DNA of 29,203 bases from NCBI GenBank assembly GCA_012797915.1, contig JAAZOE010000393.1:1-29203 (forward strand). The letters are read 5' to 3'. Each line of letters starts with the position of its first letter. The stretch's first letter is position 1. Source of the stretch: Candidatus Zixiibacteriota bacterium. GTDB taxonomy: Bacteria > Zixibacteria > MSB-5A5 > GN15 > JAAZOE01. The notes under the pieces are model-generated. The model ran no database searches, was not told the DNA's origin, and saw only the letters and a program-made list of their open reading frames with translations. Made by a program: the position numbers and the translations under genes. Below are positions 847-3,901 of this stretch, piece after piece.

Positions 847-884
847 GTCGTCGGCCGTCACTGGAATGAAGGACGGCAGACGGC
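847..884 (+). other. 5'-leader hairpin
   Basis: GTCGTC-G-GCCGTC (847-859) pairs with GACGGC-A-GACGGC (872-884): 12 bp including one G-U, around a 12-nt loop ACTGGAATGAAG. Confidence 0.45.
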
Positions 885-930
885 ACCGGCGCCAAGAAAC
901 TAAGGGTTTTCAAATAAATCGAGGTGGCAA

Positions 931-1743
931 ATGCGCGACCGAAGCAGATGCGCTGATATGTTGGCGTCCATGGTCGTTTTCTCCGTGTTCCTAATGATGG
1001 CTCTGATCATAGGCGGACGCCTTTTCGGGCAGGAGTTCCGTCCCGACAAAGATTATAGTCCGAATGAATTCGAAAAAACTCTGATTGACCGGATAAAAAT
1101 GGCCGCCAAACCAGATACAGGCGCAATGATGTTTATTTATCGAATGTCTCCGGCGATTGAAGACGCCTGTAAAGCGCTGGATAATCCAACACCGCAGGCA
1201 ATCGACAGCATCATGGAGTACGCCGGCGGTTGCCACAGGGTGATTTTTCGCGAATCAATGGTCAAACTTCAGGCCGATACTTCGGTGCTCGCAGAAATAA
1301 TGGCCTGTATGCCTCAGCAGGGACATTTCGCGGTAAAAACCGTCGAACTGCCAAAAGGTATATACCTTATCGTCTACTGGTCGCACATAGCCCAAAAGTG
1401 TCTCCCGGCGAAAGGGGGAATTGGCTATGGCGGAGGCATCTATCCGGGCGATCCCGATTTCTTTCGAATCGGGCTATCAGCAAGGGTTGATTCGGATTCA
1501 ATAAAGTACATACTGTACCGCGGCACAAGCAGCCTCACCGTACCATCTGATAGTATTGTTAAAATGGTCTCTTTTGCAACGGTTCATGATAGTTTCGATG
1601 TCTCGGTCGAATTCGAAAAAAGGCGTTTCGATATTTGGACTCTGAATCTCTATTCTCTCAATCGGACGACCAAACGGTATGATCTCATTGGCATTGCTAT
1701 CCCCGCTTGCGTTCTAGACGGCCCGCCGCGCCCGAGAAAGTAA
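931..1743 (+). CDS. Hypothetical exported protein, no recognised domain
   Basis: 270-aa ORF, GAGGTGG SD-like motif upstream, N-terminal hydrophobic stretch (MLASMVVFSVFLMMALIIGGRLFG-Q). It ends 23 nt before the next ATG. Confidence 0.7.
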   Translation: MRDRSRCADMLASMVVFSVFLMMALIIGGRLFGQEFRPDKDYSPNEFEKTLIDRIKMAAKPDTGAMMFIYRMSPAIEDACKALDNPTPQAIDSIMEYAGGCHRVIFRESMVKLQADTSVLAEIMACMPQQGHFAVKTVELPKGIYLIVYWSHIAQKCLPAKGGIGYGGGIYPGDPDFFRIGLSARVDSDSIKYILYRGTSSLTVPSDSIVKMVSFATVHDSFDVSVEFEKRRFDIWTLNLYSLNRTTKRYDLIGIAIPACVLDGPPRPRK

Positions 1744-1766
1744 GAGAGTCAAAAAAGGAGGAAAGG

Positions 1767-3196
1767 ATGCAACGGGCAATCATATATATTCTTATCGGGT
1801 TTATGGTTGAAACAGCGTATGCTGTTACGGGAACCGTGACTATTGGAGGGGAACAATCCGCGTCGGGTGTTCTTTCAATCCGGAATGGGATATATTTAGA
1901 GTCCAGTAAGCAAGGGGTTTGTGGCATAAGGCTAATTATTAAAAAAGTTCCCGACCAGCTTGCGGGGGGAAATAGTCCGGAATATTCCAATCGCGTTGTG
2001 ACGTTTGATGGGTCACAATCCGATATCATGCAGGAAATTGACGACGAGGTTGGGAGTCCGTGCTATTATCTCGTCTGGGGCGACACTATTGGCTCCACCG
2101 TTCACTTTCCAGACACGCATACCTTTGCGATTTGTCAAGACGCTATTATGAATCTTTCATCTATATTAGATGGTTTGGAAGACGGCACCCCATCTGATTA
2201 TACTAGTTGCCCTGACAGCCTGGCCTGCTTTTTGGCGGCGGTGCCTGGTGAAATCCAATCCGACACAGGCTATTATCGATTTTGCAGAGGCGGAGTTTAC
2301 GTACGGGTGCCAATACCGATATGAAGTGGTTTCGGCAGTCTTCAAATGGATAATAGAGAACTTGCGTTGGCGTTCTCCTTCGAATGATTCTGCTCATTTT
2401 GATGCACTCGGAATATTTTCGGATACTCTGGAACCAAGTCACTTCAATCGCTACCGCACCGACTGTAAAGGTTTTTCCCGCCTTTCAATTGCCTTTTTAC
2501 GAGCATTGGGTATTCCTGCCCGTTTTGTTTCCGGGACTACTTTTTAATGCCCTCTATGAAGTACCCATGGATGGTGGGGGTGTTATCGGCCTTACTTTTG
2601 GCCATGGCGCCCATGCTTGGGCGGAAGTCTATTATCCCAGCGCGGGGTGGATTCCGTATGATCCTCAAAGGTACTTGCACCATACCGATGTGCTCCGCTA
2701 TAAAAAGGCTCATGGAAGTCAGAACACCAACGTACATCCGGAATTATTCATGGTCTTGGTGCGAACTCCCAATATGTACGATTGGTGCGTTGTTCAATCC
2801 ATTAATGACGACTGGTCCACGCTTGATTGTTATTCCTCTAATATTTGCTCGATAGATAATCTGCATCTCCTGTCAATTGATCAGTCATACCCTACATATA
2901 AGATCGCAATTGCCGATTCGGCGTATGCCCCGGCGGGCGCCTGTTGCGTCGTGCCGGGGGATATCAACGACGATGGCAAGGTCACGGTTGGTGATCCGGT
3001 TTTCCTGATAACCTATATTTTCCGTGGAGGGCCGGAGCCAAATTGCGGGACCACCGCCGATACAAACAATGATTGTAACATAAACGTCGGCGATGCCGTC
3101 TACATAATCAATTATATCTTTCGCGGAGGTCCTCCGCCGGATTGCATTCCCTGTAAATCGTATCAGATGCCCGGCCAAGATATTGCATCACAATGA
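1767..3196 (+). pseudogene. Secreted transglutaminase-like (Cys-His-Asp) protein with C-terminal dockerin-like domain, split over three frames (frameshifts near 2263-2267 and 2541-2545)
   Basis: SD AAGGAGG and ATG at 1767 with a signal peptide. Frame 1 runs to ...FLAAVPGEIQSD. Frame 2 carries AIIDFAEAE...VFKWIIENL...DCKGFSRLSIAFLRALGIPARFVSG (Cys codon 2464-2466). Frame 3 carries HAWAEVYYPSAGWIPYDP (His 2612-2614, Asp 2660-2662) and then the dockerin. Confidence 0.85.
2942..3145 (+). other. Dockerin-like duplicated Ca-binding module (C-terminal domain)
   Basis: CCVVPGDINDDGKVTVGDPVFLITYIFRGGPEPNC...ADTNNDCNINVGDAVYIINYIFRGGPPPDC: two internal repeats of a DxNxDxxVxVxD loop plus helix. Confidence 0.85.
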
Positions 3197-3262
3197 GATC
3201 GTGCTTCCCGGAGCAGGTGTTTATACTACCGGCCCCATGCACCCCGTCAGTTCAACTTCCGC

Positions 3263-3293
3263 TTGACAAATCGGCCGATTCTTGGGTTATTTC
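3263..3293 (+). promoter_or_regulatory. Putative promoter with a perfect 12-bp palindrome in the spacer
   Basis: TTGACA at 3263-3268, AATCGGCCGATT palindrome at 3269-3280, weak -10 candidates TTATTT/TATTTC at 3287-3293. Confidence 0.45.
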
Positions 3294-3301
3294 GGGTGAG
3301 G

Positions 3302-3516
3302 AAGGTGCACGCGAGGCCGGTTCCGGAATCGGTCCGCCGCCCCGCGTAACGGCACCTTGGAGCGTCACGATACCAGACAACGCGTCGAAGACCACAATCG
3401 ACGCCGAACCGATTTCGACCCGGCCGGGGGAATGCCCAGTCGCGTTGTCGGAACGGAATCTGAACGCGACCACACGCTCGAGAGGGGAAGGGGCAAACGA
3501 TCCGGCCGGGCGAAAT
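3302..3516 (+). ncRNA. Candidate structured RNA / cis-regulatory leader of unknown family
   Basis: Hand-found helices: 3302-3308/3352-3358, 3309-3313/3343-3347, 3315-3322/3327-3334, 3382-3388/3398-3404, 3412-3417/3511-3516, 3419-3427/3502-3510, 3433-3437/3491-3495, 3439-3446/3463-3470. Long-range 3360-3365/3474-3479 and alternative 3376-3384/3441-3449. No riboswitch consensus that I recognise. Confidence 0.55.
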
Positions 3517-3540
3517 TAAATTTTCAACTGGGAGGGATGT

Positions 3541-3801
3541 ATGAAACGTTGGCTGACCTGGGGGCTGAGTTCACTCTTCGTGGCGGCCTTTGCCTTATCC
3601 ATGGTCGTGACCATGGCCCAACCGGCCGCGGCCACCGACAGCGGGGTGACTTGTTGCTTCATTAAACGATGTCCCGGCTTTCAACCGAGTGAAATGGGTT
3701 CAATCGGACCGGCGGGCTGCCTGCACTACGGCAACTCCTGCGACCGGTGGTGCGGTGAAGGCCCCGGAACCGAGCAACCGTTCCTGCCTCCGGACATTTG
3801 A
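3541..3801 (+). CDS. Small secreted cysteine-rich protein (86 aa, 6 Cys)
   Basis: SD GGAGGG at 3531-3536. Classical signal peptide MKRWLTWGLSSLFVAAFALSMVVTMAQPAAA. Mature part has CC-X4-C-X15-C-X6-C-X3-C. A hairpin follows. Confidence 0.8.
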   Translation: MKRWLTWGLSSLFVAAFALSMVVTMAQPAAATDSGVTCCFIKRCPGFQPSEMGSIGPAGCLHYGNSCDRWCGEGPGTEQPFLPPDI

Positions 3802-3820
3802 TGAAGTGATTTCTTTGTCT

Positions 3821-3851
3821 TCCTCCGGGCCGCAGTATCGGCCCGGAGGAG
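3821..3851. terminator. GC-rich hairpin between convergent genes
   Basis: TCCTCCGGGCCG / CGGCCCG(G)GAGGA, 12-bp stem with one bulge and a 6-nt loop. No strong U-tract. Confidence 0.5.
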
Positions 3852-3901
3852 CCTAATTCATCAATCATCTTTGGGGAAAAACGATCGCTCGGTCGGGCGC
3901 C

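What the first reader, a model, noticed from the sequence alone, without database searches (positions are those of the whole stretch)
3302..3516. Unrecognised ~215-nt multi-helix RNA leader with mutually exclusive pairings and a possible pseudoknot
Seen: between a TTGACA promoter and the SD of the Cys-rich peptide gene there are at least eight helices. Domain 1 is 3302-3358. Domain 2 is closed by ATTTCG-a-CCCGGCCGG (3412-3427) / CCGGCCGGG-CGAAAT (3502-3516), which ends 14 nt before the SD. GAGCGT (3360-3365) can pair with ACGCTC (3474-3479), crossing domain 2 as a pseudoknot. GACAACGCG (3376-3384) is perfectly complementary to CGCGTTGTC (3441-3449), which competes with two local hairpins (3382-3388/3398-3404 and 3439-3446/3463-3470). 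Known: I could not match it to cobalamin, c-di-GMP, c-di-AMP, SAM, T-box, RNase P, tmRNA, SRP or group II intron consensus. Inference: a new riboswitch-like or conformational-switch leader, or an independent ncRNA.
Basis: partly seen in the sequence, partly recalled or inferred. Interest (0 to 1): 0.78.

Follow-up and report, generated by a model that had tools for sequence, protein, structure and literature searches.

The report
New structured RNA before peptide gene
This is a real, previously undescribed folded RNA of about 220 bases, found only in one small group of uncultured Zixibacteria; it usually sits in front of a small secreted peptide gene but is kept even where that gene has been deleted, so it probably has a job of its own.

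Summary
The region (about 3297-3518, + strand) folds better than shuffles (z about -3) and matches no Rfam family.

I found seven further variants: one same-genus genome, five metagenome or Logan contig types and one variant read from laid contigs. Covariance models found nothing else in 14 family, 151 order and 151 phylum genomes.

Comparison supports these parts:
- a conserved promoter footprint;
- a fast-evolving 5' domain (P2, P3);
- a slowly evolving 3' domain (P4-P5-P6 plus an invariant purine-rich strand), at 84-95% identity against 63-84% at four-fold sites of the neighbouring UbiA gene.

Five pairs show compensatory changes, and many G-U changes fit only the + strand.

Neither proposed switch pairing is supported. 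The 9-bp alternative helix is perfect only in this window. The pseudoknot is lost in three variants.

Six variants carry the Cys-rich peptide gene just downstream, and an RNA-library contig bridges leader and ORF. Two variants share a clean ~290-nt deletion of SD plus ORF, yet keep the RNA and a degenerate copy of the hairpin; the promoter is seen kept in G001 only.

Best reading: a lineage-specific RNA with its own function that also serves as the peptide mRNA leader. No conserved riboswitch expression platform is visible. Function is unknown. Interest is moderate.

The parts
3253..3293 (+). Promoter footprint: an invariant 24-nt block containing the -35 TTGACA (3263-3268), a variable spacer, and an invariant GTTATTTC (3286-3293) as a weak -10.
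   Evidence: Blocks are identical in the window, G001 and L027 while the spacer and discriminator vary. Homology in the relative seen in run X14 begins exactly at 3253. The consensus scanner found no 9-of-12 sigma-70 site, so the -10 is weak or non-canonical.
3297..3417 (+). 5' domain of the RNA. It evolves fast (52-84% identity) and contains P2 and P3. The 5' end (3297-3300) can pair with 3414-3417 (P1).
   Evidence: P1 shows U-A / U-G / C-G variation. MFE folds of this domain differ between homologs.
3304..3356 (+). P2 hairpin. The base GGUGC/GCACC (3304-3308/3352-3356) is invariant, P2b is 3309-3311/3345-3347, and the apical part varies in sequence and length (9-nt insertion in the G001 type).
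3382..3404 (+). P3 hairpin (GCGUCGA / UCGACGC) with a free-varying 9-nt loop.
   Evidence: Pair 3385-3401 runs U-A, U-G, C-G across variants. Three further pairs change to G-U, which would be C.A mismatches on the - strand.
3419..3510 (+). 3' domain, the conserved core: P4 (3419-3427/3502-3510, 9 G-C pairs, invariant except that L047 lacks the first C, 3419, leaving 8 bp), internal loop GGGAA, P5 (3433-3437/3491-3495), then P6 and the purine-rich strand.
   Evidence: The same fold appears in every MFE prediction and in RNAalifold. P5 has two compensatory pairs: 3433-3495 U-A/C-G and 3435-3493 C-G/U-A. Identity is 84-95% against 63-84% at four-fold sites of UbiA.
3439..3470 (+). P6 hairpin: an 8-bp stem, a 4-bp upper stem (CGGA/UCUG with G-U) and the hexaloop ACGGAA. 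It is invariant except T/G at 3448 and C/U at 3454.
   Evidence: No covariation is possible because the stems never vary.
3471..3490 (+). Long 3'-side internal-loop strand ending in the invariant AGAGGGGAA. It is predicted to be mostly unpaired.
   Evidence: The 3-bp mini-hairpin predicted here loses its first pair through deletions in L027 and L023.
3511..3540 (+). Linker and Shine-Dalgarno site (GGGAGGG 3530-3536). 3511-3516 can extend P4 by pairing with 3412-3417.
   Evidence: The extension is kept in all six peptide-bearing variants (C-G to U-A compensatory change in L027 and L047). It is broken in the two ORF-deleted variants. The rest of the linker is variable.
3541..3801 (+). Gene for an 86-aa secreted peptide (Sec signal, six conserved Cys in the mature part).
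   Evidence: Third-codon-position excess and conserved Cys across three orthologs. Only two clusters in the 5.8-billion protein set. A fourth, more divergent ortholog lies in L047. No Pfam family.
3821..3850 (+). 12-bp G+C-rich hairpin between the peptide gene and the convergent UbiA gene. It is a probable terminator, but lacks a U-tract.
   Evidence: The hairpin is conserved in L022 and L027. A degenerate copy remains in G001 and L023 after the ORF deletion.

Best explanation
This is a new, lineage-specific structured RNA of about 220 nt, transcribed from its own conserved promoter. It has a fast-evolving 5' domain (P1-P3). It also has a strongly constrained 3' domain: a 9-bp all-G-C closing stem P4, then P5 and the P6 hairpin, plus invariant unpaired purine-rich segments (GGGAA, ACGGAA, AGAGGGGAA).

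In most members it forms the 5' part of the mRNA of a small secreted six-cysteine peptide. It also has a function that does not depend on that gene. In two variants one clean deletion removed the SD and the ORF; the RNA remains in both and the promoter in G001 (the L023 contig ends at the RNA's 5' end). The 3' domain stayed under purifying selection.

Inferred mechanism (not shown): the RNA, either as the leader or as a stable fragment of the transcript, acts through the constrained 3' domain by binding a protein or another RNA. This would make it a dual-function or 5'-UTR-embedded sRNA rather than a metabolite riboswitch that gates the peptide gene.
For: Real and conserved:
- Eight sequence variants exist (window; L030-36; the X14/X20 variant; L022; L027-29; L047; G001; L023).
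- 98.4% of pair cells form standard pairs, against 32-46% when partners are slid.
- Compensatory changes occur at 3297-3417, 3385-3401, 3416-3512, 3433-3495 and 3435-3493.
- The G-U changes fit only the + strand.

Not coding:
- Substitutions show no 3-periodicity (21/20/25), unlike the peptide ORF (13/15/32).
- Indels of 1 and 2 nt occur between homologs.

Promoter: there is a -35 / variable spacer / -10 / variable / conserved-transcript footprint.

Own function:
- G001 and L023 lack the SD and ORF through the same ~290-nt deletion.
- Its boundaries lie about 10 nt after P4 and at the stop codon.
- In that ORF-less pair the 3' domain is 91% identical. Four-fold sites of UbiA are 68% and the RNA's own 5' domain 72%.
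- G001 keeps the promoter blocks unchanged.

No cis platform:
- No terminator lies between RNA and ORF.
- L022 and L027 have no U-tract after P4.
- The SD's predicted partner differs in every variant.

RNA libraries (weak):
- One contig (X9) runs 3310-3810 across leader and ORF.
- In another study (X20) a contig of the ~95% variant holds 3326-3536.
Against: - There are only eight variants from a shallow clade, so covariation has no formal statistical power. The stems of P4 and P6 never vary.
- The ORF deletion is a single event shared by G001 and L023, so 'kept without the gene' is one natural experiment, not two.
- No trans partner was found. Hfq was not detected in either genome (87-89% complete). 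A k-mer look for complements of the invariant strands gave only background.
- Two features persist only in the peptide-bearing variants: the A-U extension of P4 and the 7-bp core of the alternative helix. This hints at an additional cis role.
- Logan contigs cannot show RNA ends, strand or abundance, and DNA can contaminate RNA libraries.
- Fold z-scores are weak in L027 and L023.
Confidence: 0.5

Rival explanations
1. It is a purely cis-acting regulatory leader for the Cys-rich peptide gene: a riboswitch-like aptamer, or a binding site for a regulatory protein. Its retention in G001 and L023 would then be a leftover that has not yet decayed.
For: - It sits immediately upstream of the peptide gene in six of eight variants, with P4 ending 13-25 nt before the SD.
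- An RNA-library contig bridges leader and ORF.
- The P4 extension 3412-3417/3511-3516 is kept, with a compensatory C-G to U-A change, only where the ORF exists. The same holds for the 7-bp core of the alternative helix.
- 3412-3417 has two possible partners, the 5' end or 3511-3516, so a switch is conceivable.
Against: - The 3' domain is 91% identical between the two ORF-less variants. Four-fold sites are 68% and the RNA's own 5' domain 72%. That is not the pattern of a decaying relic.
- The G001 promoter is untouched.
- No conserved terminator or SD-sequestering helix is tied to the conserved core.
- P4 is nine invariant G-C pairs, which makes a poor switching helix.
Confidence: 0.28
2. It is a regulator of the convergent UbiA-family (decaprenyl-phosphate phosphoribosyltransferase-like) gene. 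Transcription from the RNA promoter would run toward the 3' end of that gene and act by antisense pairing or transcriptional interference, possibly gated by the structured domain.
For: - The right-hand neighbour is always the convergent UbiA gene, while the left-hand neighbour varies: TGase-dockerin, lepB or something else.
- In ORF-less variants the RNA ends only about 100 nt from the UbiA stop codon.
Against: - A G+C-rich hairpin lies between the two in all variants.
- Within one genus, conserved synteny is expected anyway.
- The closest UbiA relatives outside the clade (76% identity, L025 and L026) lack the RNA. For L024 (83%) the available flank is only 75 nt, so nothing can be said.
- The RNA shows no complementarity to UbiA.
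Confidence: 0.07
3. It is a CsrA/RsmA-sequestering sponge RNA of the CsrB/RsmZ type, acting through GGA motifs.
For: - Several invariant GGA motifs lie in unpaired contexts: 3300-3302, 3429-3431, 3455-3457 in the P6 hexaloop (A-N-GGA), and 3486-3488.
- CsrA is encoded in G001.
Against: - There are only about six GGA motifs in 220 nt, close to the roughly four expected from composition (my estimate). Only one sits in an apical loop.
- CsrA lies 2.4 kb from FliW. To my knowledge, this is the partner-switch type, in which a protein rather than an sRNA antagonises CsrA.
- CsrA was not found in G000 (87% complete).
Confidence: 0.05
4. It is not a functional RNA. The conservation would reflect recent common ancestry or a DNA-level element, and the helices would be chance features of G+C-rich sequence.
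For: - The clade is shallow.
- Fold z-scores are only -1.05 and -1.65 in two homologs.
- P4 and P6 never vary, so they give no covariation signal.
Against: - The 3' domain is clearly more conserved than four-fold sites of the adjacent gene in every pair.
- Five compensatory pairs and many strand-specific G-U changes are present.
- A promoter footprint is present.
- The sequence occurs in contigs from RNA libraries of two studies.
Confidence: 0.05

Closest known systems
Orphan riboswitch candidates / structured 5' leaders (the kind of motif catalogued in Rfam as 'Cis-reg; leader' or 'riboswitch')
   Same: A conserved multi-helix domain lies between a promoter and the SD of a gene. It has invariant unpaired nucleotides in internal loops and a variable peripheral hairpin.
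   Different: - It matches none of 4227 Rfam models, even at E up to 10.
- There is no conserved terminator/antiterminator or SD-sequestering helix.
- It is retained under selection where the downstream gene was deleted.
- It is known only from one genus-level clade.
Dual-function leader/sRNA elements, such as riboswitch elements that also act in trans. One example is the SAM-I element of Desulfovibrio vulgaris described in bioRxiv 10.1101/803072, of which I saw only the title and abstract.
   Same: One RNA is both the 5' leader of an mRNA and a candidate stand-alone regulator. This would explain selection on the RNA without its downstream ORF.
   Different: No ligand, target or discrete short transcript has been shown here. 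The resemblance is one of logic, not of sequence or structure.
CsrB/RsmZ-type protein-sponge sRNAs
   Same: A promoter-driven, structured, non-coding RNA with repeated GGA-containing purine-rich unpaired segments.
   Different: GGA density is low and mostly not in apical loops. The genus has a FliW-linked CsrA. There is no Rfam match.
6S RNA (RF00013)
   Same: About 200 nt, own promoter, highly structured. No 6S was detected by RF00013 in four genomes of this family, so that slot is formally open.
   Different: The 5' and 3' ends do not form the long closing helix with a central bubble that defines 6S. The RNA was not found outside this genus in the other 12 genomes of the family, whereas 6S is a housekeeping RNA.

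Membership tests
Any Rfam 15 family | Covariance-model score at or above the family's gathering threshold | tested here: not met
   There were 0 hits over the whole window at gathering thresholds. In sensitive mode on 3150-3900 the best hits were chance-level miRNA or isrJ matches of 11-16 bits, E = 5-8.
Riboswitch (as a class) | Conserved structured aptamer-like domain in a 5' leader | tested here: met
   The 3' domain P4-P5-P6 is conserved, with two compensatory pairs and invariant loop nucleotides.
Riboswitch (as a class) | Conserved expression platform (terminator/antiterminator or SD-sequestering helix that competes with the aptamer) | tested here: not met
No terminator-like site lies between RNA and ORF. 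L022 and L027 have no U-tract. The SD's predicted partner differs in each variant.
Riboswitch (as a class) | Consistent association with the gene(s) it controls | tested here: inconclusive
   Six of eight variants have the peptide gene downstream. Two lost it through one shared deletion yet keep the RNA under selection.
Riboswitch (as a class) | Direct, selective ligand binding | not testable with these tools
   This needs in-line probing or ITC. The peptide's unknown function gives no clue to a ligand.
6S RNA | 5' and 3' ends paired into a long irregular helix with a large central bubble, and an RF00013 match | tested here: not met
   The consensus fold is two side-by-side domains. There is no RF00013 hit in G000, G001, G004 or G007.
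CsrB/RsmZ-type sponge | Many GGA motifs presented in hairpin loops, with a CsrA that is regulated by sRNAs | tested here: inconclusive
   About six GGA motifs are present, one of them in an apical loop. CsrA is present in G001 but lies next to FliW.
Intrinsic terminator at the RNA's 3' end (stand-alone sRNA gene architecture) | Compact G+C-rich hairpin directly followed by a U-tract | tested here: not met
   P4 encloses about 75 nt. The tail is A/U-rich only in some variants and absent in L022 and L027. The next hairpin lies after the ORF, or about 35-60 nt downstream in ORF-less variants.
Protein-coding sequence (ORF 3193-3519) | Frame conserved and third-position bias in substitutions | tested here: not met
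   Substitutions are evenly spread over the three positions. Indels of 1 and 2 nt occur between homologs.

The most novel reading that the evidence does not exclude
The constrained 3' domain is the aptamer of a new riboswitch or ligand-sensing RNA class that works both in cis and in trans. In cis it would act on the secreted peptide mRNA, through the choice of 3412-3417 between the 5' end and 3511-3516. In trans or on its own it would explain survival in lineages that deleted the ORF.
Probability: 0.12. Interest if true: 0.7.

Novelty: new member of a known kind. Interest (0 to 1): 0.45.

Why it matters
Zixibacteria are uncultured, and I found no described regulatory RNA for them; one full-text search for Zixibacteria with sRNA or riboswitch terms listed no paper that mentions them.

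This locus offers a natural experiment: the same RNA with and without its downstream gene. That is a clean way to ask whether a 'leader' has a life of its own. If the RNA proves to be trans-acting or ligand-binding, it would add a new RNA family.

The reach is limited. The motif is known only from one genus-level clade in digesters, sludge and sediments. The peptide's function is unknown, and the organism cannot yet be manipulated.

Tried and rejected
- **Known RNA classes.** Rfam at gathering and at E up to 10 gave nothing. ARAGORN found no tRNA or tmRNA.
- **Collection scans.**
  - The first metagenome pattern scan gave 0 hits.
  - The second gave one new homolog, L047.
  - The genome-contig scan only re-found G001's contig, which is named a Candidatus Zixiibacteriota MAG.
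- **Covariance-model searches.** R1, R2 and R3 over 14 family, 151 order and 151 phylum genomes found only G000 and G001. Weak hits (E 0.04-0.9; L018-L021, L038-L040, L043) were treated as chance.
- **Synteny outside the clade.** Relatives with 76% identical UbiA (L025, L026) have no RNA and no room for it, as the intergenic space is 113 nt. For L024 (83%) only 75 nt of flank is available.
- **Coverage gaps in RNA libraries.** The X9, X13 and X20 contigs do not extend into the flanking genes. Contigs cannot show transcript ends, so I draw nothing from the uncovered parts.
- **Target hunt.** Counts of 9-11-mers complementary to the invariant single strands in G000 were within the range of ordinary k-mer bias.
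- **CsrA sponge.** Weak, see rivals. Hfq was not found. 6S was not found in the family, but this RNA is not 6S-like.
- **Coding reading of ORF 3193-3519.** Rejected.
- **P4 plus A/U tail as an intrinsic terminator.** Rejected.
- **SD sequestration by the conserved core.** Rejected, because the partner differs in each variant.
- **Tertiary pairings between invariant segments** (CCCC 3340-3343 with GGGG 3484-3487; the P6 loop with UUCC segments). These are untestable because the segments are invariant or not in register.
- **Protein look-up P0003.** It returned no DNA.

Full report
**Observation**

The + strand of 3295-3545 folds at -105.3 kcal/mol, with z = -3.1 and 0 of 200 dinucleotide shuffles as good. 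The - strand gives z = -2.0. The RNA proper (3297-3518) gives z = -2.9. Rfam finds nothing at gathering thresholds over the whole window, and only chance-level hits (E = 5-8) in sensitive mode. ARAGORN finds nothing.

**Organism and habitat**

The nearest named relatives of the adjacent UbiA-family protein are Zixibacteria or FCB-group MAGs. The same-genus genome G001 is titled Candidatus Zixiibacteriota. Runs holding the stretch come from anaerobic digester, sludge, wastewater and soil metagenomes.

**Homologs**

- BLAST over 61 relatives found one homolog, in the same genus: G001, 73% identity, L009:986-1221 on the - strand.
- Contigs carrying close UbiA or peptide orthologs gave more variants:
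  - L022, cut at its 5' end;
  - L023;
  - L027-29;
  - L030-36, which are the window's own population and carry G at 3448.
- A second metagenome pattern scan gave L047.
- Laid contigs revealed a ~95% variant in runs X14 (DNA) and X20 (RNA library).
- Covariance models of the whole RNA and of the 3' domain alone found nothing else in 14 family, 151 order and 151 phylum genomes.
- At the same site, relatives with 76% identical UbiA have no such RNA.
- As far as searched, the element is confined to one genus-level clade.

**Anatomy supported by comparison**

1. *Promoter footprint.* An invariant 24-nt block holds TTGACA (3263-3268). It is followed by a variable spacer, an invariant GTTATTTC (3286-3293) and three variable bases. 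The conserved transcript then starts at about 3297. The -10 is weak by the E. coli consensus. In X14's relative, homology starts exactly at 3253.
2. *5' domain (3297-3417).*
   - The P2 base GGUGC/GCACC is invariant, with a variable apex.
   - P3 is 3382-3388/3398-3404. Pair 3385-3401 runs U-A, U-G, C-G, and three other pairs turn into G-U.
   - A short P1 joins 3297-3300 to 3414-3417 (U-A/U-G/C-G).
3. *3' domain (3419-3510).*
   - P4 has nine G-C pairs, invariant except that L047 lacks the first C.
   - P5 has two compensatory pairs: 3433-3495 U-A/C-G and 3435-3493 C-G/U-A.
   - P6 is invariant.
   - A 20-nt 3'-side strand ends in the invariant AGAGGGGAA.

Overall, 98.4% of pair cells form standard pairs, against 32-46% when partners are slid by one to three columns. 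Five pairs show changes on both sides. The alignment was fitted to the model and the sequences are few and related, so this is supportive rather than statistically decisive. The G-U changes would be C.A mismatches on the other strand, which fixes the + strand.

The region is not coding. Substitutions are evenly spread over the three codon positions (21/20/25 against G001). In the peptide ORF they are 13/15/32. Indels of 1 and 2 nt also occur.

- *Alternative helix 3376-3384/3441-3449.* It is perfect only in this window. Seven other contigs of the same population and all relatives have G at 3448. G001 has two mismatches and L023 three. A 7-bp core (3378-3384/3441-3447) persists in the peptide-bearing variants. 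It arises because the 5' strand of P3 and the 3' strand of P6 share the word AACGCG. A 7-bp match is expected by chance in a sequence of this size.
- *Pseudoknot 3360-3365/3474-3479.* It has a mismatch in L022, shrinks to 4 bp in G001 and is absent in L027 and L023.
- *A-U extension of the closing stem (3412-3417/3511-3516).* It is kept in all six peptide-bearing variants, with a C-G to U-A change in L027 and L047. It is broken in G001 and L023.

**Relation to the peptide gene**

The 86-aa ORF is a real gene:
- It has a Sec signal and six invariant Cys in the mature part.
- Substitutions show a third-position excess.
- Orthologs lie in L022, L027 and L047.
- It falls in only two clusters in the 5.8-billion protein set and has no Pfam family.

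In six variants the ORF starts 25-40 nt after P4. G001 and L023 share one ~290-nt deletion that removes the SD and the ORF. It runs from about 10 nt after P4 to the stop codon and leaves a degenerate copy of the downstream hairpin.

In this ORF-less pair the 3' domain is 91% identical. Four-fold degenerate sites of the adjacent UbiA gene are 68% identical (n = 139), and the RNA's own 5' domain is 72%. The promoter blocks of G001 are unchanged; the L023 contig ends at the RNA's 5' end, so its promoter is not seen. In every pair of variants the 3' domain (84-95%) is more conserved than four-fold sites (63-84%). The 5' domain (52-84%) is not. The 3' domain is therefore under selection that does not require the peptide gene.

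**Transcription**

- In an RNA library (X9) one 502-nt contig covers 3310-3810, bridging leader and ORF.
- A second run of the same study (X13) holds 3530-3795.
- An RNA library of another study (X20) holds 3326-3536 of the ~95% variant.
- These are contigs. They show that the sequence is present in RNA libraries and that leader and ORF are contiguous there. They do not show ends, strand or level.

**Mechanism**

- No terminator lies between the RNA and the ORF.
- The tail after P4 is A/U-rich only in some variants.
- The SD is predicted to be partly paired in each variant, but with a different partner each time: the 5' domain in the window, and local linker hairpins in X14, L022 and L027.
- P4 is too stable and too invariant to be a switching helix.
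- I therefore see no conserved expression platform.

The best-supported reading is an RNA with its own function that also serves as the leader of the peptide mRNA. It would act through the constrained 3' domain and its invariant unpaired purines by binding a protein or RNA. That last step is inference. I found no partner:
- Hfq was not detected.
- CsrA exists in G001 but sits 2.4 kb from FliW, and the GGA density is low.
- A k-mer look for complementary targets gave only background.

A purely cis-regulatory role remains the main rival. It is kept alive by the two features that survive only where the ORF exists. However, these rest on a single deletion event.

**Verdict**

The 'conformational switch plus pseudoknot' interpretation is not supported. 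'A novel structured RNA, possibly independent' is supported. This is a new RNA family of an ordinary kind (bacterial structured leader or sRNA) with a very narrow distribution and unknown function.

Noticed in passing
window 1707-3196: The transglutaminase-like/dockerin gene upstream is split over two or three frames. The same split (185-aa and 264-aa calls) appears in independent assemblies L030-L033. G001 has an intact 471-aa gene (L009:1324-2739, - strand). The break is therefore real in this population and not an assembly error.
   Followed up: partly
window 3541-3801; L022:3999-4262; L027:2501-2764; L047:497-757: The secreted six-Cys peptide falls in only two clusters in a 5.8-billion protein set and has no Pfam family. 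It has been deleted in two related variants. A more divergent ortholog in L047 keeps all six Cys.
   Followed up: partly
window 861-3253; L027:2146-2250: The left neighbour of the RNA varies. In L027-29 the divergent lepB (S26) gene lies directly beside the RNA promoter. The window lineage has about 2.3 kb inserted there (a 270-aa ORF plus the TGase-dockerin gene). In run X14's relative the sequence left of 3253 is unrelated.
   Followed up: partly
window 3448: The window has T at 3448.
   Followed up: yes
L009, L023, L027 (UbiA and RNA locus): G001 is closest to peptide-bearing L027 in both UbiA and the RNA (UbiA 4-fold sites 84%; RNA 88%). Yet it shares the ORF deletion and its junction with the more distant L023. 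This suggests recombination at this locus.
   Followed up: no
G000, G001, G004, G007 (whole genomes): No RF00013 (6S RNA) match in four genomes of the family. No Hfq Pfam match in G000 or G001. CsrA and FliW lie 2.4 kb apart in G001.
   Followed up: partly
L047:2-519: The UbiA gene on this JGI contig reads in two overlapping frames (2-229 and 220-519). This is either a frameshift or a sequencing error.
   Followed up: no
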